The notes below the pieces were generated by a model that was not told the origin of the DNA, did not search any database, and worked only from the letters and a program-made list of their open reading frames with translations. A stretch of DNA of 64,000 nucleotides from assembly GCA_023663235.1 (NCBI GenBank), contig JAMPHW010000002.1:146608-210607 (forward strand), written 5' to 3'. How positions within the stretch are numbered: position 1 is the stretch's first letter; each line of letters begins with the position of its first letter. Source of the DNA: Ruminococcus sp. GTDB taxonomy: Bacteria > Bacillota_I > Bacilli_A > RF39 > UBA660. This document shows positions 16,922 through 27,743 of the stretch, in pieces. Position numbers and translations under genes: made by a program.

Positions 16922-17602
16922 CTAAAAAATATAAAAGATTAATACTATAAGCATTACTAAAAAAGATATTAAGATGTTTTTAGAATCATCATCCAAAACA
17001 AAAAGATAAGTAATCTTTTTTAAACTAGGAGGAAGTGTAATTTCCTTAATATTAGTATGACCGAAAGCATATTCTCTAATTATTTCAATCCCTATATTAA
17101 GACTTAATTTTTCTAGATTATGACATTTATAAAAGGCATTATAACCTATTTCCTTTAATGTACTTGGCATTATAACCTCCACTAAAGCAGTATTAGAAAA
17201 AGCATATTTACCTATTCTTTCTAATCCTTCATTCAATGTAACTTTTTCTAAACTAGAGCAATTATCAAAAGCACCATAACTTATCTCTTTTAAGGTATTT
17301 GGCATTATAACCTCAGTTAAAGCAGTATTAGAAAAAGCACACTCACCTATTTTTTCTATTCCTTCTTTTAAAGTTACTTTAGTTAAGCTTATTTGATTAT
17401 TCATAAGAGCATAAAGAATTTCCTTTAATGATCCTGGTATAATTAAAGATTTAACAGTTATACTAGAAAACGGATTACTATCATCTTTTCTTCTTAAAAT
17501 ATCTGTTACCCCATCAGGAATAACAATATCTTCGCTAATTCCACGATATTCTAAAATGCACCCATCTACAATTAACCATTCATCATTATCTATAGTTAAC
17601 AT
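16922..17602 (-). CDS. BspA-type leucine-rich-repeat (LRR_5) segment of the split paralog
   Basis: Repeats such as IGECAFSNTALTEVIMPNTLKEISYGAFDNCSSLEKVTL and IGKYAFSNTALVEVIMPSTLKEIGYNAFYKCHNLEKLSL. Start trimmed to ATG 17602 (AGGTGA RBS). It ends in an out-of-register hydrophobic tail after a T6 tract. No signal peptide. Confidence 0.65.
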   Translation of the reverse strand: MLTIDNDEWLIVDGCILEYRGISEDIVIPDGVTDILRRKDDSNPFSSITVKSLIIPGSLKEILYALMNNQISLTKVTLKEGIEKIGECAFSNTALTEVIMPNTLKEISYGAFDNCSSLEKVTLNEGLERIGKYAFSNTALVEVIMPSTLKEIGYNAFYKCHNLEKLSLNIGIEIIREYAFGHTNIKEITLPPSLKKITYLFVLDDDSKNILISFLVMLIVLIFYIF

Positions 17603-17655
17603 AAGTATCACCTTTTAAGTTGTTATTTTACCATAAAAAAAGCTAAAAAACAATT

Positions 17656-19596
17656 TTATAACTTATAGTTTATAGCTTCATTATAACTTCTTAATTCATT
17701 AAGATACTTTTCTAGATTAAATTTAATATCATACAAGCCTTTTAAAATCTGAATAGATACTTGCTGGTTCCAACTTAAACTACTGGTTATCTCATTTTCA
17801 TGTAATATAAAACTATCTTGCATAATGCTTTGATAAGAACTATCTAAAAGACTAGAAATAGATGTAATAATATCCTTTTTTAAATCTTCATTAACTAAAC
17901 TATTACTAAGTACTTCCATTATATCTTTAACTGTACCACTAATAGCACCTAGGGGTTTATTATTATCACTAGTTAATAGTGATTTTGCTTCACACAAATC
18001 ACTTAACAATTCAGTTTTGTTTACAATATTTGGAACTAAAGTAGATAATTCTTCAATTAAAGGTTGCAATTCTTCTCTTAAATTTCTTTCAGTATTATTA
18101 TCTACTTTGAGTCTCATCGCTTTATATGTATACCCATTTATAATACTATAAAACCTTTCTTTATAGATATTACAGTTATTAGTATCTAAAGATTTAATTA
18201 TAGCTTCTAAAGAAACTAAATCTTGACCTAAGTTTGTAGATGCATCTCTACTTAAAGCTTTAAAAAAATTATTAGCTAATATTGCTTTACCACACACTTC
18301 ATTTATTTTATTTTCTAATATTGTATCATAATCTATTGTAATAGCAAAATTAAATGCTAAGTTAAAGACATCGCTAGAACTTCGCATTATTTCTACTTCT
18401 ATTTCATCCAATATTTCTATTAGTATTTCATTTAAATAAGGAATATTATCTTTATAAGTCATTACTTCACTTATTTTTTTAGATATATTATCAAAGTTAA
18501 AAGTTTCATTATTATTTATTATCTCGCGATATTTAATTATTTTTTCTTTTAAAGAAGTATAGCTTTCTATTCTAGTAAAATTTAAAAGCATAACATTTAA
18601 TTCTGATAATAACTTAGCTTTTAAAGTTGCTGGTGTATCTGCTATCGTAAGCTTTATGTCGTTAGAAGATAAAGATTGGTAACTAGGTTCTAAAGCCTTT
18701 AAATCTTTTAAATATTTATTGATTAAACTATCTAATTTAGTTAAAATAGCTTGCTTATCTTTTTCTTCAAATACATTAGTTTTTTCTCTTATTTCATTTA
18801 CTAAACTAGATATTTCAGCATCTACTATTAATGGCTCTTTTCTAGTTATTACTTTATCATCGACTAGATAATTATCTTCTTCCATATTAACAAAATCACT
18901 AATTTTTCTTAATTTTTTTAACTCTCTTTTATTATAGTAATTATAAAAAGTAACATGTAAATTAGAATTGTCTAACATTTCTTTAACTTCATCTATATCA
19001 AAATCATTATCAACAATTACTTTGCAATAAATATTTTTCTTTTTATTAATACTATCCTTTAATAATAAGAAAGTCTTAAAATGACATATTAAAGTAGTAT
19101 TAGGATTAAAAGCATCATTACCAATATCGTTAAGTGATGTAGGTAAGTATACTTCTTTTAAATTAGTATCATAAAAAGCTAAATCCCCAATTTTTTCTAA
19201 ACCATCATTTAAAATAACTTTTTTTAAATTGTGATTAAAAGTAAAGGCTGAATAACCAACACTTCTTAAAGAACTAGGCATAATAATCTCACTAATATTA
19301 GTATTTTTAAAAGCATTACCTCCTATAACACTTATTCCTTCTTCTAAAGTAACTTTGGTTAAAAGTTCATAATTAACTACAAAGTTTTTAGGAATTGTAC
19401 CAACAGAGCCAGGTATAGTTAAAGATTTTATACCCACTCCTTTATTAAAATAAGTATAAGTATAAGAAAGTTTAAATGAAAAATTTTCATCAAAGCTAAT
19501 TACGCCATCAGGAATGACAACATCTTCAGAGGTTCCAAAATGTTCTTTAACACATCCATCCACAATTAGCCACTCATTATTATTTATATTTAACAT
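17656..19596 (-). CDS. Fusion of an N-terminal BspA-type LRR domain and a about 430-aa helical domain of unknown function
   Basis: N-terminus MLNINNNEWLIVDGCVKEHFGTSEDVVIPDGV followed by LRR_5 repeats, then a long predicted helical region. Start trimmed to ATG 19596 (GGTGA RBS) by analogy with the paralog's N-terminus MLTIDNDEWLIVDGC. No signal peptide or TM. Confidence 0.7.
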   Translation of the reverse strand: MLNINNNEWLIVDGCVKEHFGTSEDVVIPDGVISFDENFSFKLSYTYTYFNKGVGIKSLTIPGSVGTIPKNFVVNYELLTKVTLEEGISVIGGNAFKNTNISEIIMPSSLRSVGYSAFTFNHNLKKVILNDGLEKIGDLAFYDTNLKEVYLPTSLNDIGNDAFNPNTTLICHFKTFLLLKDSINKKKNIYCKVIVDNDFDIDEVKEMLDNSNLHVTFYNYYNKRELKKLRKISDFVNMEEDNYLVDDKVITRKEPLIVDAEISSLVNEIREKTNVFEEKDKQAILTKLDSLINKYLKDLKALEPSYQSLSSNDIKLTIADTPATLKAKLLSELNVMLLNFTRIESYTSLKEKIIKYREIINNNETFNFDNISKKISEVMTYKDNIPYLNEILIEILDEIEVEIMRSSSDVFNLAFNFAITIDYDTILENKINEVCGKAILANNFFKALSRDASTNLGQDLVSLEAIIKSLDTNNCNIYKERFYSIINGYTYKAMRLKVDNNTERNLREELQPLIEELSTLVPNIVNKTELLSDLCEAKSLLTSDNNKPLGAISGTVKDIMEVLSNSLVNEDLKKDIITSISSLLDSSYQSIMQDSFILHENEITSSLSWNQQVSIQILKGLYDIKFNLEKYLNELRSYNEAINYKL

Positions 19597-19644
19597 GATA
19601 TCACCATCTATTATAATTTTATCATAAAAAAAGATAGATAACAA

Positions 19645-19896
19645 TTATTTGACATCTAACTTGACAACAGTTACCCCCGGATTAAATATGTCCACATAAA
19701 AAGACTCAACGTTTTTATTTCTCTTTAAAAGTTCATGAACCCTTATTTTTAAAATATCTGAACTTCTCCCATGAATAATAGCAACTTCTCTATTTTGAAG
19801 CTTTATATTATCTCTTAAAAAATCCTCTACTAAAAAAACACAGGTATCTCTTGTTTCACCGTGTAAATTTAGCGTAGGCGTTTTACTTACTAGCAT
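19645..19896 (-). CDS. Stand-alone Smr (small MutS-related) domain protein
   Basis: 83 aa. LNLHGETRDTCVFLVEDFL...VAIIHGRSS fits the Smr LDLHG...E...iiHGkG pattern. Its start overlaps the upstream kinase stop by 14 nt. Confidence 0.75.
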   Translation of the reverse strand: MLVSKTPTLNLHGETRDTCVFLVEDFLRDNIKLQNREVAIIHGRSSDILKIRVHELLKRNKNVESFYVDIFNPGVTVVKLDVK

Positions 19897-20971
19897 TTTC
19901 TACAGGAGAAACTGCCCCTCCAAAGCCAAACATATCTGCCAGTCCAGCTTGATTAATCGTGCTTGGGTCAGGTATTTTAAATGTTGCAGCATCAGGAATA
20001 TCAGGAAGACTATCTTCTGGTTTAATCTCCTCTTGTTTTGGTGCCTCTTCAACTGGTGCCTGTATATTAAATTTTTGATTATAATAGTTGATGACTTCTT
20101 TTAAACTAGGAATTGATGGTCTACCACCCATTTTACCAACTGATAAACCTGCCGCAATATTAGAATAAGTAACAGCCTTTTCTATATCAAAATTATTAGC
20201 CATACAATAAGCAAAAGCACCATGAAAAACGTCTCCTGCTGAACTCGGATCAACAACCGTAGTTTTAATTCCTGGCATAACTTTAATCTCTCCATTAACG
20301 CAATATAAAGCTCCCATATTTTCTAAAGTTACTACAATATTACTGTTTGGATAACGTTCTCTAAGTCTTTTATAAACATTTACTAAACTAATAGAATTAT
20401 TAAAATCTATTTTCATACCACTAACATTTTCTGCAAAACCCTTAGAACAAACAATATATTTAACATATTTACATAATTCTAATAAATCTCTATCTACTCT
20501 ACCAGCATCAACAATACTAATCGCATTTGGAAACTTATTTAAAGCATTAATTGTTGCAGCATACTCTTTACCATCAGAAAATACAACATTAGGACTTATC
20601 GAATATTCATATTTTTTTAAAGGGGGTTGTAAATCTCCTACAACATCAAAACGTGTTCTAGTTCCAGCTTTTTTATTAACAAGTATAACTGAAAGAGATG
20701 TACCAACTTCATAAGAGGTTTCCATAAGTTCAGTTTTAACCATAGCTTGTTCTAATTCAGCTCTAATTTTAGTACCATAATCATCAGAGCCAACAACACC
20801 AGCATAATAAGAAGTTTCTCCCCACTTGCCTAATAAAAAAGCAACATTTGCGGCACTTCCTCCACCTGATTCAATTTTCTCATTTAATAAATATTTAGTG
20901 CCTTCAACAGGATAATCTTCTACAGGGCAAGTTATATCATAACTACTTCTACCAATGCTTAGTATTGTCAT
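19883..20971 (-). CDS. PfkB-family carbohydrate/nucleoside kinase (ribokinase-like) with a about 60-aa low-complexity C-terminal tail
   Basis: GGSAANVAFLL near the N-terminus and DPSSAGDVFHGAFAY (the DTxGAGD catalytic region). The tail APVEEAPKQEEIKPEDSLPDIPDAATFKIPDPSTINQAGLADMFGFGGAVSPVENASK lies outside the fold. Confidence 0.8.
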   Translation of the reverse strand: MTILSIGRSSYDITCPVEDYPVEGTKYLLNEKIESGGGSAANVAFLLGKWGETSYYAGVVGSDDYGTKIRAELEQAMVKTELMETSYEVGTSLSVILVNKKAGTRTRFDVVGDLQPPLKKYEYSISPNVVFSDGKEYAATINALNKFPNAISIVDAGRVDRDLLELCKYVKYIVCSKGFAENVSGMKIDFNNSISLVNVYKRLRERYPNSNIVVTLENMGALYCVNGEIKVMPGIKTTVVDPSSAGDVFHGAFAYCMANNFDIEKAVTYSNIAAGLSVGKMGGRPSIPSLKEVINYYNQKFNIQAPVEEAPKQEEIKPEDSLPDIPDAATFKIPDPSTINQAGLADMFGFGGAVSPVENASK

Positions 20972-21030: not shown

Positions 21031-21060
21031 AAAAAAGCAAGCGCCTTTTTAAACGCTCAC
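21031..21060 (-). terminator. Rho-independent terminator closing the bacteriocin-like operon
   Basis: Minus strand, directly after the pepC stop: GTGAGCG-TTTAAAAAGG-CGCTTGC (7-bp stem with two G-U pairs) followed by TTTTTT. Confidence 0.6.
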
Positions 21061-21065
21061 CTTTT

Positions 21066-21218
21066 TTAGCAGTAATTTTTAGTAATTCCTCGGCGAATAG
21101 TAGAACCTACCATCTTTCCAAAATCCATAACAGTGGAAAAAAGTCTAACTACAGAAGTTATTAAGCTTGAAGATATGCCTCCTGTAACACATATTAATTC
21201 TCTATTTTCTATTCTCAT
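21066..21218 (-). CDS. Double-glycine-leader peptide C (50 aa), bacteriocin-like precursor
   Basis: Not in the ORF track. MRIENRELICVTGG|ISSSLITSVVRLFSTVMDFGKMVGSTIRRGITKNYC. Starts 2 nt after the pepB stop. GG leader, GxxxG (GKMVG), cationic mature part. Confidence 0.7.
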   Translation of the reverse strand: MRIENRELICVTGGISSSLITSVVRLFSTVMDFGKMVGSTIRRGITKNYC

Positions 21219-21220
21219 AA

Positions 21221-21358
21221 TTAGCACTTGTTTGGATGAATATAGCCATATATTACAGAAGCTATAAACACTACTCCTAAAACAATTCCTCCTATTACTG
21301 TTTTACTCATTCCACCATTAATATTAGTTAATTCTTTGTTATTAATTTGCTCTACCAT
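21221..21358 (-). CDS. Double-glycine-leader peptide B (45 aa), bacteriocin-like precursor
   Basis: Not in the ORF track. MVEQINNKELTNINGG|MSKTVIGGIVLGVVFIASVIYGYIHPNKC. AGGAG lies 9 nt upstream. The ATG overlaps the pepA stop (TCATGGTAG). Classic ELxxIxGG leader, hydrophobic mature part with GxxxG. Confidence 0.8.
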   Translation of the reverse strand: MVEQINNKELTNINGGMSKTVIGGIVLGVVFIASVIYGYIHPNKC

Positions 21359-21489
21359 GAATACTTACTCCTTACATTTTTTACTGCTTTTATAACATTT
21401 ATAAAACTTATTACAAAACTTTTAATATAGTTAATAGTAGCACTACCGCCTATACAGTTTACTAAGTTTTCTCTACATAATTTTTCCAT
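21352..21489 (-). CDS. Double-glycine-leader peptide A (45 aa), bacteriocin-like precursor
   Basis: Not in the ORF track. MEKLCRENLVNCIGG|SATINYIKSFVISFINVIKAVKNVRSKYSW. GGAAG lies 8 nt upstream. The predicted 30-aa mature peptide is amphipathic with net charge about +5. Confidence 0.75.
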   Translation of the reverse strand: MEKLCRENLVNCIGGSATINYIKSFVISFINVIKAVKNVRSKYSW

Positions 21490-21506: not shown

Positions 21507-21908
21507 TTAAAATATCTTTTCTTTAATTTTTTTAATTATTCTTTGTTTATTATAATAAAAATTCAAATTTATAATTTCCTTATCATTTAAAACTAAATTT
21601 GTTTTAATCGTTAAATCAAAATAACTTATTAAATTTTCTTCATCTAATTTTAATTCTTTTTTTAAAACTATATATTCCATATTTTTACTATTAATACTTA
21701 TTTTATCAAAAGTTATATTACTAGGTATCATAACATTTATAAAACAATCACTATTGCAAGTAACATACCCTTTTGTTTGATAGTTGTCATAAATTCTTAA
21801 TCTAATCATAATATAGACTAATAATGTGATTACTACTGTTATTAATAAAACTAACAACCATAATTTATGAGGTTTCTTTAATAAAAAAGCTTGTTTATTA
21901 TTATACAT
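21507..21908 (-). CDS. Small N-terminally membrane-anchored accessory protein of the exporter operon (133 aa)
   Basis: One TM (LWLLVLLITVVITLLVYIMI) followed by a about 95-aa beta-rich region containing CNSDC. Overlaps the ABC gene stop by 8 nt. Much shorter than HlyD/LcnD-type accessory proteins. No family assigned. Confidence 0.6.
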   Translation of the reverse strand: MYNNKQAFLLKKPHKLWLLVLLITVVITLLVYIMIRLRIYDNYQTKGYVTCNSDCFINVMIPSNITFDKISINSKNMEYIVLKKELKLDEENLISYFDLTIKTNLVLNDKEIINLNFYYNKQRIIKKIKEKIF

Positions 21909-23973
21909 ATCTAATATTTAAGTCCTCAATATTAATAATTTTAGAAAAACAATCATCAACATTTTTGTGGGTTACATATATTAAAGTCTCGTTTTTATAA
22001 TATTCGAAAATACTCCATAAAATTTCTTTTTCTAAATCTACATTTACTTCACTTAAAGCTTCATCTAAAATCATAATTTTTACTTTTTTAAGTAGTCCTC
22101 TAGCTAAAATTATTCTTTGCTTTTCTCCACCACTTAAATTATTTAATGAAGCATTAATATAAGAATTGTAACGATGTGGTCTTTTCTTTACAACATTTTC
22201 CAATTTACAAATATTAACTACTTTTAGAAATTCTTCTTCAGATACATTTCGATAGCAAATTATATTATCGCGTATTGTCCCTGTAAATAAACTTTCATTT
22301 TGTCCAATATATAATATTCCTCTTCGAATAGCATCCAAACTATAATCAGATTCACTCATAACATTTATTTTCAAATTTCCAGTATATTCATTATAATAAC
22401 GGGTAATCAGTTTACAAATTGTACTCTTTCCGCAACCGCTAGATCCGCTTAATAATACTTTTTCTCCTGCTTCTATCTGAAAATTTATATCAGTTAGAAT
22501 ATTAGAAAACTTATTATATGAATAATCAAGATGTTCAACTGTAATACTACCATTATTAATAACTTTTAAGCCCTTTTCTTTTTGGCTTAATTCCTCAGGA
22601 ATATTTAAGAATTCACTTAACTTATTAAAAGATGCTTTTAAATAATTATATTTAGGTAAAATACTTACTAAGTCTTTAATCGGATCAAATAAATATAATA
22701 AAACACTATTAAACGTTATAAGACTTAAAATATCAAAAGAACCTTTATAAACAAAGTATATTCCTAAAGATAAGATTGTAAAAATACCTATTTCATAAAT
22801 AAAGCTTTTAATAAACTCCAAATTATTTAAGAAATTTTGCAGATTTAAATTACTTTTTAGCATTAAAACTAATTTATCTTCTAGTTTATAATAAAACTGT
22901 TTAATTAAATTTAAATTTTTAATACTAGTATTCATTTCAATATTTTCTACTAAAGTAGAATTAAATTCTGTTTCCATCTCAATATTAGTTTTAATCTTTT
23001 CATAAATTAACTTATTAAAAATTAAACTAACTATTAAATAAAGGCTAATTACTAAACAAAGAATCAAAAATAGTTTAGCATTTATAAGAAACAGGACAAC
23101 TATCGTGCCCATAACCAAAACAATATTTAGAAGAACATTAGTAAATATTTCTGCAAGAAGACTTTTTATTTCACTAAGTTCTCCTATACGACTTGTAATT
23201 TCTCCTGTTGTACGGTTTTGGATAAAGCTTAAAGGAAGATTAAAAATATGAGCTATAAATGAAGTAAAAATAGAAACATCAATGTTTTTATTAAGATAGT
23301 TCAGATAATAATTCTTAAGATAATTTAAGACAACTTTAAAAAGAGTAATCAGTAAAAATAGGAGTGTTATGAATTTTAAAAAATTATAATCTGTTCCATC
23401 ATTAATACTAGACATGGCTATTTGAAAATAAAAATTACCTATTATCGTCATAAACGTTAATAAAAAAGCTATGATTAAAATTAGTATAAAAAGTGTTTTA
23501 TTAGCTTTCAGTAGATTAAAGAAAATATTGGAAATAGTTATATTTTTATCATAACTAACGATATTACTTATAGGTGTCATTAAAATCAAAATATTATCCC
23601 ATATACTATTAAATTCTTTAATAGGCATTTTTACCTTACCACGAGCTGGATCCATTAAATAAACTATATCGCTTTTTATTTTATATAAAACGGCGAAATG
23701 CTGTAACCCATTTTTTAAATTTAAATGAACTATCGCTGGCAAGTAAATATTTTTATCATGAATATCTGATGCTCTAATCCCTATCGTTTCAAAACCATAT
23801 AAATTAGCAGCTTTAATTAAGTGATAGGCTGTTGTTCCATTAAAATTAGTACAAGTATCTTCGCGTATTTTCTCAATCGGAACATAACCATTATAGTATC
23901 TAATAATACATGATAAGGAGCATGCGCCACAATCTTTTAAATCATGTTGTTTTACTACTTCAATCTTACTCAT
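21901..23973 (-). CDS. Peptidase C39-domain ABC transporter (bacteriocin/competence-peptide cleavage-export type)
   Basis: N-terminal C39 motif QHDLKDCGACSLSCIIRYYNG plus HFAVLY. Six-TM region. Walker A GSSGCGKST, signature LSGGEKQR, Walker B ILDEALS. Start trimmed to ATG 23973 (AGGGAG RBS) from the track's 24048. Confidence 0.9.
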   Translation of the reverse strand: MSKIEVVKQHDLKDCGACSLSCIIRYYNGYVPIEKIREDTCTNFNGTTAYHLIKAANLYGFETIGIRASDIHDKNIYLPAIVHLNLKNGLQHFAVLYKIKSDIVYLMDPARGKVKMPIKEFNSIWDNILILMTPISNIVSYDKNITISNIFFNLLKANKTLFILILIIAFLLTFMTIIGNFYFQIAMSSINDGTDYNFLKFITLLFLLITLFKVVLNYLKNYYLNYLNKNIDVSIFTSFIAHIFNLPLSFIQNRTTGEITSRIGELSEIKSLLAEIFTNVLLNIVLVMGTIVVLFLINAKLFLILCLVISLYLIVSLIFNKLIYEKIKTNIEMETEFNSTLVENIEMNTSIKNLNLIKQFYYKLEDKLVLMLKSNLNLQNFLNNLEFIKSFIYEIGIFTILSLGIYFVYKGSFDILSLITFNSVLLYLFDPIKDLVSILPKYNYLKASFNKLSEFLNIPEELSQKEKGLKVINNGSITVEHLDYSYNKFSNILTDINFQIEAGEKVLLSGSSGCGKSTICKLITRYYNEYTGNLKINVMSESDYSLDAIRRGILYIGQNESLFTGTIRDNIICYRNVSEEEFLKVVNICKLENVVKKRPHRYNSYINASLNNLSGGEKQRIILARGLLKKVKIMILDEALSEVNVDLEKEILWSIFEYYKNETLIYVTHKNVDDCFSKIINIEDLNIRYV

Positions 23974-24130
23974 AAAATTTCTCCCTTCACCTATATTTAT
24001 TACCACTATATCTTTTATTTCCTTTTTTTTATTACTAAAAGTATACATTTTGGTGAATTCATCCTATCATTCGACATAATTCGATAGTCTTATATGTTAT
24101 ACTAGCAAACTTAAGAAAGGAGGAAAATTT

Positions 24131-24583
24131 ATGCAAGATGGGGTTTTGATTGCTAAATTAAGATGTAAAAAAAATATTACTCAAAACGAGATGGCTAAAC
24201 TCCTAAAAATAAGTTTACCAGCATATAAGTTATACGAAACTAATCTTAGAGTTATGAAAATATCTGAATTAAATGTTTTAAGTAATTATTTTAATATTTC
24301 ATTAAATACTTTATTAGGACTTTCAAAAGATTTTTCTTCAACTACAGAACAAAAGGCTGTTAATTATAAAATTTTAAAATATAATATAAAAATACTAAGA
24401 AGAAAAGCTAAATTAACTCAAGCTAGTTTAGCTAAAGAATTTGATATGTCTACCAATACTATTTCAAGATTTGAAAGTGAAACTAGACGTGTTGACGCAG
24501 TTTTTCTCTATAAATTAGCAAAAAAATTTAATATATCAGTTGATTTTATGTGTGGAAAAACTTTAGATAAAAATATTGCTTAA
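24131..24583 (+). CDS. XRE-family regulator with two tandem HTH domains (150 aa)
   Basis: Two HTH_3-like units (ITQNEMAKLLKISLPAYKLYE... and LTQASLAKEFDMSTNTISRFE...). AAGGAGG RBS. Divergent from the exporter operon. Confidence 0.8.
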   Translation: MQDGVLIAKLRCKKNITQNEMAKLLKISLPAYKLYETNLRVMKISELNVLSNYFNISLNTLLGLSKDFSSTTEQKAVNYKILKYNIKILRRKAKLTQASLAKEFDMSTNTISRFESETRRVDAVFLYKLAKKFNISVDFMCGKTLDKNIA

Positions 24584-26371: not shown

Positions 26372-27145
26372 TTAATTAAATATTATAACATCATTATAAT
26401 CATTTTTTGTGCTTTTTACAAGATAACTTAAAGTTAAATATCCACTTTTATTAATATATATGGCATAATTATCAGAATTATCTAAATTATTTAAAGTATT
26501 AGCTATATCTATTTCTTCATCTTCTTTTTTAGCTAATTTTTCTTGAACTTCCATTTTAATTTTTGTCATATTAGTACTATAAATATCTAGTATTTCATCA
26601 TTAGTTATTATTTTACCTGTAGATGTATCAAAGGTATAAGAACTACTTGTTAAATATTTAGAACCTGAAAAACAATCAAAACTATATTTATCTATTAGTA
26701 TAGAAGCATAATCTTTATAAAAATATCGCGTATAATTTATGTATTCAGCACTATAAATATCATCTTCTTTATAAACGATTTCTTCTTGTTCCCCATCTTC
26801 TATTTCCATATCACTAATCTTTTTTAAATTTTCTTCTAAAGTATCCATTTCATCATTTAGTTTAGTCTCAATTCCACCTGCTTCTTTACTATTAATATTT
26901 ATTTTAATTTTTTTAAATGAAATATCTAAACTCTCACTTTTTATTTCTTCATCTTCGAAATAAATATATTCTTCATTATCTAATATTTTTAAACTTTTTT
27001 CTTCAGGAACCTTTTCTTCTATATTACTATCTTTATCTTTTGAAGATTTAGTTAAATAATTAGTTAAAAAGAAACCACCTAAAGCTAGAAAAATAATAAA
27101 AAGCACAAATATTAAAGCGTATATTTTCCCTCTTCTAATATCCAT
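26372..27145 (-). CDS. Membrane-anchored hypothetical protein (257 aa); possibly DUF4163/DUF3298-like extracytoplasmic domain
   Basis: N-terminal TM (IYALIFVLFIIFLALGGFFL), acidic linker, then a beta-rich domain. The domain guess is weak. Confidence 0.5.
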   Translation of the reverse strand: MDIRRGKIYALIFVLFIIFLALGGFFLTNYLTKSSKDKDSNIEEKVPEEKSLKILDNEEYIYFEDEEIKSESLDISFKKIKININSKEAGGIETKLNDEMDTLEENLKKISDMEIEDGEQEEIVYKEDDIYSAEYINYTRYFYKDYASILIDKYSFDCFSGSKYLTSSSYTFDTSTGKIITNDEILDIYSTNMTKIKMEVQEKLAKKEDEEIDIANTLNNLDNSDNYAIYINKSGYLTLSYLVKSTKNDYNDVIIFN

Positions 27146-27155
27146 AATAACTCCT

Positions 27156-27743
27156 TTATTCTGTTAAATAATCTATAAACATTGTTTTTAAACTATTAGT
27201 TTTAAGACCCACTTTTAAGTCTGTCCAATATTCTTCTGGTTTAGTACTACCTAATGTAAGTGCAGTTTCATTATCAAAATAAACAATATTACCATTTTTT
27301 ATAACAATTAAAGTTGGTGAATAAATATTTTTAGTACCATCATCTAAAGTTAAAACATAATTACTAAGCTTAGCTACAATACTTTGATAAGTAGCGTTTT
27401 TATTATTTCTATCCTCATAAAAATCATAATATAGTATTTCTTTTATATTTGAACTCTTAGCAGCTTCATTTAAAATATTGGCATAATAACCTGTCCATTT
27501 ATTATTTGGAAAACCCATGAAAATTATAGCATTTCCTCTTAAAGCACTATAAACATCTCTAGCACTCGCATAAACAAAAACATTATCACTGCTTACCATT
27601 TCATATTCTTGATCAAATTTTTCATTATCAATAACTTCTTTTGGTGAAAAATCAAGTGTACCTACATAAATGAAAGCGATTATTATTGAAATAAAAGCTA
27701 TACCTTGGAATATTTTAATTAATTTCTTTTTCATATAAATCAC
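27156..27743 (-). CDS. Membrane-anchored thioredoxin-fold-like protein lacking the CxxC motif (195 aa)
   Basis: N-terminal TM. IIFMGFPNNKWTGYYANILNEAA...ILYYDF...TLIVIKNGNIVYF follows thioredoxin-like topology but has NNKW where CxxC is expected. An alternative ATG at 27734 is possible. Confidence 0.5.
   Translation of the reverse strand: MIYMKKKLIKIFQGIAFISIIIAFIYVGTLDFSPKEVIDNEKFDQEYEMVSSDNVFVYASARDVYSALRGNAIIFMGFPNNKWTGYYANILNEAAKSSNIKEILYYDFYEDRNNKNATYQSIVAKLSNYVLTLDDGTKNIYSPTLIVIKNGNIVYFDNETALTLGSTKPEEYWTDLKVGLKTNSLKTMFIDYLTE

What the first reader, a model, noticed from the sequence alone, without database searches (positions are those of the whole stretch)
21066..21489. Three unannotated double-glycine-leader peptides behind a C39 ABC exporter: candidate new multi-peptide class II bacteriocin
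The minus strand carries three back-to-back short ORFs between the stop of the 133-aa gene (21507) and a hairpin+T-run terminator (21031-21060). All three fall below the ORF-track size cutoff.
- pepA (21489-21352): MEKLCRENLVNCIGG|SATINYIKSFVISFINVIKAVKNVRSKYSW.
- pepB (21358-21221): MVEQINNKELTNINGG|MSKTVIGGIVLGVVFIASVIYGYIHPNKC. Its ATG overlaps the pepA stop.
- pepC (21218-21066): MRIENRELICVTGG|ISSSLITSVVRLFSTVMDFGKMVGSTIRRGITKNYC. It starts 2 nt after the pepB stop.

Each has a 14-16-aa leader ending in GG with the E-L-x-x-(I/V)-x-G-G-like pattern that C39 peptidase domains process. The adjacent exporter keeps an intact C39 Cys/His. The predicted mature peptides (30, 29 and 36 aa) are cationic and/or hydrophobic. 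pepB and pepC carry GxxxG motifs (GIVLG, GKMVG), which are characteristic of two-peptide (class IIb) bacteriocins. I do not recognise the mature sequences as any named bacteriocin.
Basis: partly seen in the sequence, partly recalled or inferred. Interest (0 to 1): 0.85.

Follow-up and report, generated by a model that had tools for sequence, protein, structure and literature searches.

The report
Conserved three-peptide bacteriocin-like export operon
Three real small genes behind a peptide-cleaving ABC exporter encode secreted peptides, two of which look like a new family of two-peptide bacteriocins, and the whole operon is conserved in a lineage of uncultured gut bacteria, though no antimicrobial activity has been tested.

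Summary
Three minus-strand ORFs (pepA 21352-21489, pepB 21221-21358, pepC 21066-21218) lie behind a C39-ABC exporter and a 133-aa membrane protein, ahead of a terminator. All have canonical double-glycine leaders and are under purifying selection (dN/dS 0.28, 0.08, 0.12).

"Unannotated" is wrong for the public record. All three are GenBank CDSs, and pepB is auto-named "class IIb bacteriocin, lactobin A/cerein 7B family". That name rests on the leader: no mature peptide hits any curated family.

Comparative genomics adds most. The same operon sits at one syntenic site in about 20 species of uncultured low-GC gut Bacilli. More distant genomes keep only the pepB/pepC pair, so pepA is a later addition. 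pepC has an invariant GxxxG. The C-terminal Cys of pepB and pepC are both present (21 loci) or both absent (9), never discordant.

Best reading (about 0.6): a class IIb-like two-peptide bacteriocin of a new sequence family plus a third cationic amphipathic peptide.

Weaknesses:
- No immunity gene is evident in this operon.
- The 133-aa protein's role is unknown.
- Activity is untested.

Verdict: new variant of a known kind, moderate interest.

The parts
24131..24583 (+). Divergently transcribed regulator, 150 aa, with two tandem HTH_3 (Xre-type) domains
   Evidence: Pfam HTH_3 hits twice (E 1e-20). It is conserved in the same divergent position in all core loci.
24066..24085 (-). Candidate operator: direct repeat aTCGAAttat/GTCGAAtgat with a 10-bp period, containing the conserved GTCGAA box
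   Evidence: Alignment of 23 intergenic regions shows TTTGTCGAA essentially invariant, with GTC[GA] 10 bp downstream in 10/23 loci. Coordinates were read. Binding by the regulator is inferred, not shown.
21901..23973 (-). Peptidase-containing ABC exporter (PCAT), 690 aa from ATG 23973 (the longest ORF reaches 24048)
   Evidence: Peptidase_C39 6e-32, ABC_membrane 3e-33, ABC_tran 2e-26. Scores are below the curated cut-offs for TIGR01193 (389 vs 524) and NF045998 (320 vs 500). Catalytic and ATPase motifs are conserved in 23 orthologues. The RBS GTGAAGGGAG is invariant.
21507..21908 (-). 133-aa single-pass membrane protein of an unannotated family. It overlaps the exporter stop by 8 nt. Role unknown: accessory and/or immunity candidate.
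   Evidence: 37 relatives besides the self-hit, 36-60% identical; 36 of them are strong matches at 41-60% identity (121-138 aa, mostly ~136), and none has a Pfam domain. The AF2 model has pLDDT 83.7, with a TM helix at 16-36, a six-strand beta domain and a C-terminal helix. No significant PDB fold match; only weak CusB hits at E 0.3-0.5. dN/dS 0.21.
21352..21489 (-). pepA precursor, 45 aa: 15-aa GG leader plus a 30-aa cationic amphipathic mature peptide (net +5, 3477 Da)
   Evidence: Orthologues in 25/25 core loci, two of them with GTG or TTG starts. Absent from 5 distant loci. dN/dS 0.28. No family hit. RBS GAAAGGAAG lies upstream.
21221..21358 (-). pepB precursor, 45 aa: 16-aa GG leader plus a 29-aa hydrophobic TM-like mature peptide (GRAVY 1.16, 3080 Da) with G24xxxG28, S34xxxG38 and a C-terminal Cys
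   Evidence: TIGR03949 24.5 bits vs 21.5 cut-off and TIGR01847 17.2 vs 15.7. The mature part alone gives no hit. dN/dS 0.075.
21066..21218 (-). pepC precursor, 50 aa: 14-aa GG leader plus a 36-aa cationic amphipathic mature peptide (net +4, 3969 Da) with invariant GxxxG (GKMVG), an RR motif and a C-terminal Cys
   Evidence: Exhaustive HMMER finds 25 representative relatives, all 49-75 aa and unnamed, with the signature G-x3-G-S-x-I-R-R-x(4,5)-N-Y-C. dN/dS 0.116.
21031..21066 (-). Intrinsic terminator ending the operon
   Evidence: Terminator scan. Fold dG -17.4 kcal/mol, z -2.9. An equivalent hairpin follows pepC in L015.

Best explanation
This is one operon: PCAT exporter, 133-aa membrane protein, pepA, pepB, pepC, terminator. 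It is probably controlled from a divergent promoter region by the adjacent tandem-HTH Xre-type regulator.

Proposed mechanism, step by step:
- The three precursors carry 14-16-residue double-glycine leaders.
- The exporter's C39 domain recognises them through hydrophobic residues at -4, -7 and -12, cleaves after Gly-Gly, and the ABC core exports the mature peptides.
- pepB (a hydrophobic, TM-like helix) and pepC (a cationic amphipathic helix) are an ancestral, co-inherited pair. They most likely act together as a class IIb-type two-peptide membrane-permeabilising bacteriocin, packing through GxxxG-type motifs.
- pepA is a later, lineage-specific third peptide: a cationic amphipathic heptad-like helix. 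It most likely acts as an additional or enhancing membrane-active component.

Shown here:
- The genes are real and conserved.
- Leader and peptidase features are present.
- Operon structure.
- pepB/pepC co-occurrence.

Inferred:
- Cleavage and export.
- Antimicrobial activity and B+C synergy.
- Regulator binding.
- The source of immunity.
For: Operon structure:
- Coordinates, RBSs, gene overlaps and the terminator.
- Intact C39/ABC domains and motifs in 23 orthologues.

Leaders:
- They match the -4/-7/-12 rule and the GG cleavage site described for PCAT1 (PMC6959990).
- pepB passes the TIGR01847 leader model.

Selection and conservation:
- Purifying selection on all three peptides.
- The cassette is conserved and syntenic in 19 GTDB species plus metagenome loci.

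The pepB/pepC pair:
- pepC is always directly preceded by a pepB-type peptide, including in 5 distant loci that lack pepA.
- pepC has an invariant GxxxG, and pepB has a conserved SxxxG plus G/A-xxx-G/A. These match the class IIb hallmark (PMC2850506).
- The C-terminal Cys of pepB and pepC are both present in 21 loci, both absent in 9, and never discordant.
- Physicochemistry is typical of class II peptides.
Against: - No experiment exists; activity, cleavage and transcription are all unverified.
- No dedicated immunity gene is recognisable in the window's operon, although class IIb operons characteristically include one (PMC2850506). ORF4, the small TM gene downstream of pepC in most relatives, is absent from the 64-kb window. 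It has its own promoter-like site after a terminator, and it is missing in several distant loci.
- The locus is vertically inherited at one syntenic core-genome site across species whose exporters are only 57-66% identical. This is less typical of bacteriocin loci, which are often strain-variable, and it leaves room for a non-antagonistic function.
- Mature peptides show no homology to any characterised bacteriocin.
- The coupled Cys loss reflects only one or a few evolutionary events.
Confidence: 0.6

Rival explanations
1. The peptides, or at least pepA, are secreted signalling pheromones rather than toxins. Under this reading pepA is a GG-leader induction factor that autoregulates the operon, as PlnA, ComC and BlpC-type peptides do. 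pepB and pepC are then either the effectors or further signals.
For: PCATs export GG peptides for both communication and competition (abstract of PMC7018657). pepA is the fastest-evolving peptide (dN/dS 0.28; mean column identity 43%), as pheromone/receptor pairs often are. A few family members give weak hits to ComC and EntF induction-factor models. A regulator is always adjacent.
Against: No histidine kinase/response regulator pair or RRNPP-type peptide receptor is linked to the locus. The regulator is only 150 aa, made of two HTH domains with no room for a peptide-binding domain. pepB is essentially a TM helix (GRAVY 1.16), which makes it unlikely as a diffusible signal. The ComC/EntF hits are leader-level and far below cut-offs, and they vanish for the mature peptides.
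Confidence: 0.12
2. The exported peptides serve a conserved non-antagonistic or host-directed role. Examples would be cytolysin-like action on host cells, envelope or membrane function in the producer, or a developmental role such as cannibalism or fratricide. This would explain why the locus behaves as a vertically inherited core locus without a recognisable immunity gene.
For: The operon sits at one syntenic position (frr, AI-2E transporter, regulator, exporter ... rpsU-yqeY) across about 20 species with 57-66% exporter identity. There is no immunity gene in the window operon. The hosts are uncultured, low-GC, gut-associated Bacilli. The pepA mature region statistically resembles designed pore-forming alpha-helical barrels.
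Against: Every individual feature is what class IIb bacteriocins show: GG leader, dedicated PCAT, an adjacent peptide pair with GxxxG motifs, and cationic/hydrophobic 29-36-aa products (PMC2850506). Species-wide conserved bacteriocin loci are also known (from my own knowledge, for example the pneumococcal blp and cib loci). Immunity could come from the 133-aa protein, from the exporter, or from lack of the receptor.
Confidence: 0.2
3. The small ORFs are chance open frames or decayed remnants, and only the exporter is functional.
For: They are very short. pepA and pepC have no hits in Pfam or NCBIfam or in the word-indexed protein search.
Against: dN/dS is 0.08-0.28 against a diverged strain. 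Orthologues with conserved motifs occur in 25 core and 5 distant loci. RBSs and translational coupling are present. Chance expectation for such leaders is about 0.
Confidence: 0.02

Closest known systems
Class IIb (two-peptide, unmodified) bacteriocins, e.g. lactococcin G, plantaricin EF/JK, enterocin 1071 (review PMC2850506)
   Same: Two different small peptides are encoded side by side in one operon. They have double-glycine leaders removed by a dedicated C39 ABC transporter. Both peptides carry GxxxG or GxxxG-like motifs. The mature products are 29-36 aa, cationic and/or hydrophobic, and helix-prone. [quoted passage not shown]
   Different: No sequence similarity in the mature regions to any characterised member. 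A third conserved GG peptide (pepA) lies in the same operon. No recognisable immunity gene is in the operon. The accessory is a 133-aa protein of a new family; from my own knowledge, LcnD/HlyD-type accessories are about 450 aa. The two peptides carry a conserved, co-varying single C-terminal Cys. The locus is vertically inherited across many species. Activity is untested.
NCBIfam TIGR03949, lactobin A/cerein 7B family (the name GenBank gives pepB)
   Same: pepB scores 24.5 bits against a 21.5 cut-off, and 19 of 21 pepB orthologues match at E<1.
   Different: The match covers residues 5-34, that is the leader plus the Gly-rich N-terminus. The mature peptide alone gives no hit at E<=10. The conserved C-terminal ASVIYG[YF]xxPN[KR]C signature lies outside the match.
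PCAT1/CtA of Clostridium thermocellum and LahT (structurally characterised peptidase-containing ABC transporters; PMC6959990)
   Same: Same domain architecture, with the catalytic Cys/His and leader recognition by hydrophobic residues at -4, -7 and -12. The pepA family leader weakly matches the CtA leader in the PDB (7s5j_B, E 0.44).
   Different: This exporter serves three short substrates and is translationally coupled to a small membrane protein. Its scores fall below the curated cut-offs of the bacteriocin_ABC, NHLP and Mbov_0121 subfamilies.
Multi-peptide bacteriocins such as garvicin KS (three peptides)
   Same: Three small co-encoded peptides.
   Different: Garvicin KS peptides are leaderless and related to one another (papers listed). 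Here the peptides have GG leaders, are dissimilar beyond the leader, and only two of the three are ancestral.

Membership tests
Class IIb two-peptide bacteriocin | [quoted passage not shown] | tested here: met
   pepB and pepC are 2 nt apart. The pair is adjacent in all 30 loci examined.
Class IIb two-peptide bacteriocin | [quoted passage not shown] | tested here: met
   pepB has a 16-aa leader and pepC a 14-aa leader, one residue short of the quoted range. Both end in GG with hydrophobic residues at -4, -7 and -12. pepB passes TIGR01847.
Class IIb two-peptide bacteriocin | Dedicated ABC transporter with a C39 peptidase domain | tested here: met
   Peptidase_C39, ABC_membrane and ABC_tran in the same operon. 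Catalytic motifs are conserved.
Class IIb two-peptide bacteriocin | GxxxG or GxxxG-like motifs in both peptides | tested here: met
   pepC G34xxxG38 is invariant in 21 sequences. pepB has G24xxxG28 in the window and a conserved S34xxxG38.
Class IIb two-peptide bacteriocin | Immunity gene in the same operon as the two peptides | tested here: inconclusive
   No gene lies between pepC and the terminator. ORF4 of relatives is absent from the window. The 133-aa single-TM protein is the only in-operon candidate. Single-TMD immunity proteins are known (PMC6957408), but nothing links this protein to immunity.
Class IIb two-peptide bacteriocin | [quoted passage not shown] | not testable with these tools
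   Needs synthetic or expressed peptides and activity assays.
NCBIfam TIGR03949 (lactobin A/cerein 7B family) | Whole-protein HMM score above the curated cut-off | tested here: met
   pepB scores 24.5 vs 21.5. pepA and pepC do not pass.
NCBIfam TIGR03949 (lactobin A/cerein 7B family) | Homology in the mature bacteriocin region | tested here: not met
   Mature pepB and two orthologues give no hit at E<=10. The match spans residues 5-34 only.
Pfam PF10439 Bacteriocin_IIc | Score above the gathering threshold | tested here: not met
   pepB scores 15 bits vs 27.1. pepA and pepC give no hit.
HlyD/LcnD-type bacteriocin accessory (membrane-fusion) protein, considered for the 133-aa protein | Sequence or fold similarity to HlyD-family adaptors | tested here: not met
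   None of the 36 family members hits a HlyD-type Pfam model. Foldseek against the PDB gives no hit at E<=1e-3, only weak CusB beta-barrel matches (E 0.3-0.5, TM about 0.3).
Peptidase-containing ABC transporter (PCAT) | N-terminal C39 domain with oxyanion Gln and catalytic Cys, His and Asp, plus a six-TM ABC core with intact ATPase motifs | tested here: met
   Q..DCG, HF[AV]V, DP, Walker A, LSGGE, ILDEA and the H-loop are conserved in 23 orthologues.

The most novel reading that the evidence does not exclude
pepB and pepC form a covalent heterodimer through their co-varying C-terminal cysteines. To my knowledge no class IIb bacteriocin is known to be disulfide-linked. pepA would act as a third, helper or pore-forming component, and the 133-aa beta-domain protein would be a new minimal accessory or immunity partner of PCATs. 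The whole system would be an ancient, vertically inherited core trait of an uncultured order of gut Bacilli rather than a strain-variable weapon.
Probability: 0.15. Interest if true: 0.65.

Novelty: new variant of a known kind. Interest (0 to 1): 0.45.

Why it matters
If active, this would be the first bacteriocin system described from a widespread but uncultured lineage of low-GC gut Bacilli. These organisms are labelled Bacilli bacterium, Mycoplasma sp. CAG:776 or Tenericutes in MAG catalogues from human, mouse and rabbit gut.

It would add to class II bacteriocin biology:
- a new sequence family, pepB/pepC, with the G-x3-G-S-x-I-R-R...N-Y-C signature
- a new small partner protein of PCAT exporters
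- a tandem-HTH regulator with a conserved GTCGAA box

The long-term syntenic retention of the operon suggests a strong fitness role and gives a handle on how these unculturable organisms compete or persist. The peptides are short, apparently unmodified and easy to synthesise, so the hypothesis is cheap to test.

Tried and rejected
1. Word-indexed homology searches with pepA and pepC returned only themselves. The family was reached instead through the neighbouring 133-aa protein and exhaustive HMMER.

2. The 133-aa protein as a miniature HlyD/LcnD adaptor. No Pfam relation and no significant fold match, only weak CusB hits. Not supported.

3. The near-invariant CxxxC of the 133-aa protein as a thiol-disulfide partner for the peptide cysteines. 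It is retained in both Cys-bearing and Cys-less clades, so there is no co-variation. Rejected.

4. The Cys at leader position -4 of pepA as a functionally special residue. It is common but replaced by Y, I or T in 6 loci. It simply fills the hydrophobic -4 position.

5. ORF4 of relatives as the immunity gene of this operon. It is absent from the window, separated by a terminator with its own promoter-like site, absent in distant loci, and has no Pfam match. Left open.

6. A second cysteine in the pepC of L034 as a test of pairing. Its partner has only one Cys, so this was uninformative.

7. PDB profile searches for the three families gave no bacteriocin structure. pepA hit only designed coiled-coil barrels and the CtA leader.

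8. Literature searches for three-peptide bacteriocins, RF39 plus bacteriocin, disulfide-linked two-peptide bacteriocins, and the IIBacFinder gut survey gave nothing on this family.

9. Taxonomy and paper lookups for "CAG:776" failed on tool syntax or found no entry.

Full report
**1. Observation**

- The pepA and pepB frames overlap (ATGGTAG).
- pepC starts 2 nt after the pepB stop.
- A hairpin plus T-run follows at 21066-21031, folding at -17.4 kcal/mol with z = -2.9.
- pepA and pepB have clear Shine-Dalgarno sequences (GAAAGGAAG, AAGGAG). pepC appears translationally coupled.

Upstream lie a 133-aa ORF (21507-21908) and a C39-ABC exporter. The exporter's stop overlaps the 133-aa start by 8 nt. 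It has full-length Peptidase_C39, ABC_membrane and ABC_tran matches. Its real start is probably ATG 23973 (690 aa), for three reasons:
- The longest-ORF product is not in the public collection.
- Most gene calls for the orthologues are 685-689 aa (range 678-711).
- An invariant GTGAAGGGAG RBS precedes that ATG.

A strict GG-leader pattern matches only these ORFs in the entire window, and matched none in 30 composition-matched random sequences.

**2. Are they genes, and are they unannotated?**

They are annotated CDSs in GenBank, in a MAG labelled Ruminococcus sp. (MCM1052850-52). pepB is already named "class IIb bacteriocin, lactobin A/cerein 7B family"; pepA and pepC are "hypothetical".

Three metagenome contigs from a strain about 85% identical in DNA keep all three frames. 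dN/dS is 0.075 (pepB), 0.116 (pepC) and 0.28 (pepA), compared with 0.04-0.07 for the flanking pfkB kinase and 0.21 for the 133-aa gene. They are real, selected genes.

**3. Family assignment**

- pepB passes NCBIfam TIGR03949 (24.5 vs 21.5 bits) and the leader model TIGR01847 (17.2 vs 15.7). It fails Pfam PF10439 (15 vs 27.1).
- pepA and pepC hit nothing.
- Scanning whole orthologue sets gives scattered sub-threshold hits to lactococcin G alpha/beta, ComC and EntF models.
- Mature peptides without leaders hit no bacteriocin family even at E<=10.
- So all database similarity, including pepB's curated name, comes from the leader plus a few N-terminal glycines.
- Profile searches of the PDB find no bacteriocin structure. 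pepA's mature region resembles designed alpha-helical-barrel coiled coils (E 1.6e-8), and its leader weakly matches the PCAT1 substrate CtA. pepB and pepC give nothing meaningful.
- Profile-profile comparison shows the three families are alike essentially only in the leader.

**4. Comparative genomics**

Direct searches with pepA and pepC found only themselves. The 133-aa protein, however, has 37 relatives besides its self-hit (36-60% identity, all without Pfam domains); the 36 strong matches are 41-60% identical and 121-138 aa (mostly ~136).

Their contigs, and 19 species-level GTDB genomes found with the family alignment, are all uncultured gut MAGs labelled Bacilli bacterium, Mycoplasma sp. 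CAG:776 or Tenericutes. They share one syntenic arrangement:
- frr
- AI-2E transporter
- divergent 2xHTH regulator
- C39-ABC
- 136-aa gene
- pepA-type, pepB-type and pepC-type peptides
- in most loci, a small TM ORF ("ORF4")
- rpsU-yqeY

pepA is present in all 25 core loci, including two with GTG or TTG starts and one with a Gly-Ser cleavage site. Exporter identity to the window is 57-66% across species. The locus is therefore old and vertically inherited.

The window and its sister strain are exceptions downstream: pfkB replaces ORF4-rpsU, and no ORF4 or rpsU homologue exists in the 64 kb.

Exhaustive HMMER with pepC against 1.84 billion representatives gave 25 relatives. All are 49-75 aa and unnamed, with the signature G-x3-G-S-x-I-R-R-x(4,5)-N-Y-C.

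Five of their loci were read (L031-L035). In each, pepC is directly preceded by a pepB-type peptide. pepA is absent, and the 136-aa gene is present in two and absent in three. The ancestral unit is therefore exporter + pepB + pepC. pepA, and perhaps the 136-aa gene, are additions.

**5. Features bearing on mechanism**

*Leaders.* The positions PCAT1 uses to grip its substrate are hydrophobic in all three families: the -7/-12 "hydrophobic knot" and the specificity position -4 (PMC6959990). The exporter's Q..DCG, HF[AV]V and DP motifs, Walker A, LSGGE, Walker B and H-loop are conserved in 23 orthologues.

*Mature peptides.*
- pepB is a TM-like hydrophobic helix (GRAVY 1.16, net +2).
- pepC is amphipathic and cationic (net +4, hydrophobic moment 0.61).
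- pepA is amphipathic and cationic (net +5).

*GxxxG motifs.* pepC's G34xxxG38 is invariant. pepB has a conserved S34xxxG38 and a G/A-xxx-G/A motif. The review of class IIb bacteriocins states that GxxxG or GxxxG-like motifs occur in all characterised members and are proposed to mediate helix-helix pairing (PMC2850506).

*Paired cysteines.* A single C-terminal Cys is present in both pepB and pepC in 21 loci, absent from both in 9, and never in only one. The Cys-less loci form essentially one clade. This is one or a few events, so it is suggestive of a functional or physical link, possibly an interchain disulfide, but not proof.

*The 133-aa protein.* AF2 (pLDDT 83.7) gives an N-terminal TM helix, a six-stranded beta domain with a near-invariant CxxxC, and a basic C-terminal helix. 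There is no significant fold or Pfam match. Its role (secretion helper, immunity, or both) is unknown. The same uncertainty is stated for classical accessory proteins (PMC2850506).

*Regulation.* The divergent intergenic region contains an essentially invariant TTTGTCGAA box, with GTC[GA] one helical turn downstream in 10/23 loci. In the window this is aTCGAAttatGTCGAAtgat at 24085-24066. A direct repeat with 10-bp spacing is what a single-chain tandem-HTH protein would be expected to bind. This is inference only.

*Operon end.* In relatives a terminator-like hairpin follows pepC, and ORF4 has its own extended -10 promoter-like site. The peptide operon therefore ends at pepC there too.

**6. 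Interpretation**

The best-supported reading (about 0.6) is a class IIb-like two-peptide bacteriocin (pepB+pepC) of a new sequence family. It is processed and exported by its own PCAT, with a third membrane-active peptide (pepA) added in this lineage.

The main weaknesses are:
- the lack of any experiment
- the absence of a recognisable immunity gene in the operon
- the core-genome, vertically inherited behaviour of the locus

These keep two alternatives alive: a non-antagonistic or host-directed function (about 0.2) and a signalling role, especially for pepA (about 0.12). Chance ORFs are excluded.

**7. Novelty and score**

I found no description of these peptides, of the 136-aa family or of the locus in the searchable literature. 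All relatives are unnamed.

The general kind, GG-leader peptides behind a C39 ABC exporter, is textbook, and one of the three peptides is already auto-annotated as a class IIb bacteriocin.

The combination that makes it a new variant of a known kind rather than merely another member is:
- a new mature-peptide family
- a conserved third peptide
- a novel small partner protein (classical accessory proteins are, from my own knowledge, much larger HlyD-type proteins)
- paired C-terminal cysteines
- a tandem-HTH regulator with a conserved box
- lineage-wide synteny

Interest is moderate (0.45). It is readily testable and ecologically interesting for an uncultured gut lineage, but it would not overturn anything.

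Noticed in passing
L004 5897-6106; L015 4394-4603; equivalent positions in 22 related loci (absent from the window): ORF4 is a highly conserved 54-75-aa single-TM protein (MxKKGFAAMYMVYSLFLIF...VNNYKxxFLNxLKNDIKEEL plus an acidic tail). It lies between pepC and rpsU and has its own extended -10 promoter-like site. It has no Pfam match. Its N-terminus is pseudopilin-like, and in L034 the same position holds TadE-like genes. It could be an immunity protein or something unrelated.
   Followed up: partly
window 24066-24085 and 23974-24000; L001-L030 intergenic regions: There are strongly conserved non-coding elements between the regulator and the exporter. The TTTGTCGAA box is essentially invariant in 23 species and strains. 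A 10-nt GTGAAGGGAG is invariant before the exporter start. AAAGGAAA and GTAATAAATA blocks are also conserved.
   Followed up: partly
window 1-64000 (whole window): GenBank labels the source MAG Ruminococcus sp. However, the window is 26% G+C, and every relative of this locus is from MAGs labelled Bacilli, Mycoplasma or Tenericutes. The taxonomic label is probably wrong.
   Followed up: partly
window 19645-20971 versus L004-L030 downstream regions: There is a synteny break immediately after the terminator. The window and its sister strain have pfkB-family kinase and Smr genes where all other core loci have ORF4-rpsU-yqeY.
   Followed up: partly
L002 1608-1772: In one metagenome contig of the sister strain, the 133-aa gene carries an in-frame stop (ESD*). 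L001 from a related sample is intact. This is either a natural knockout or an assembly error.
   Followed up: no
window 16922-19644 (minus strand): Two adjacent paralogous BspA-type leucine-rich-repeat proteins (229 aa and 662 aa; LRR_5 E 6e-62 and 4e-24) share an N-terminal NNEWLIVDGC...IPDGV segment. The longer one has a long non-repeat C-terminal region without Pfam hits.
   Followed up: partly
L031 5225-7673: In one distant locus the pepB/pepC pair is followed by two roughly 95-aa WXG100-like proteins (weak hits) and a 597-aa CHAP-domain protein. This suggests a neighbouring type VII-like or cell-wall-hydrolase antagonism module.
   Followed up: no
window 21352-21444 (mature pepA) and alignment A2: The pepA family's mature region matches de novo designed alpha-helical-barrel coiled coils (sc-apCC-6, E 1.6e-8; CC-Hex2). 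This reflects a heptad-like amphipathic Ile/Leu/Ser/Lys pattern compatible with self-assembling helical bundles.
   Followed up: no
window 26372-27743 (minus strand): Two conserved-looking membrane-anchored proteins (257 aa and 195 aa) upstream of frr have no Pfam match.
   Followed up: no
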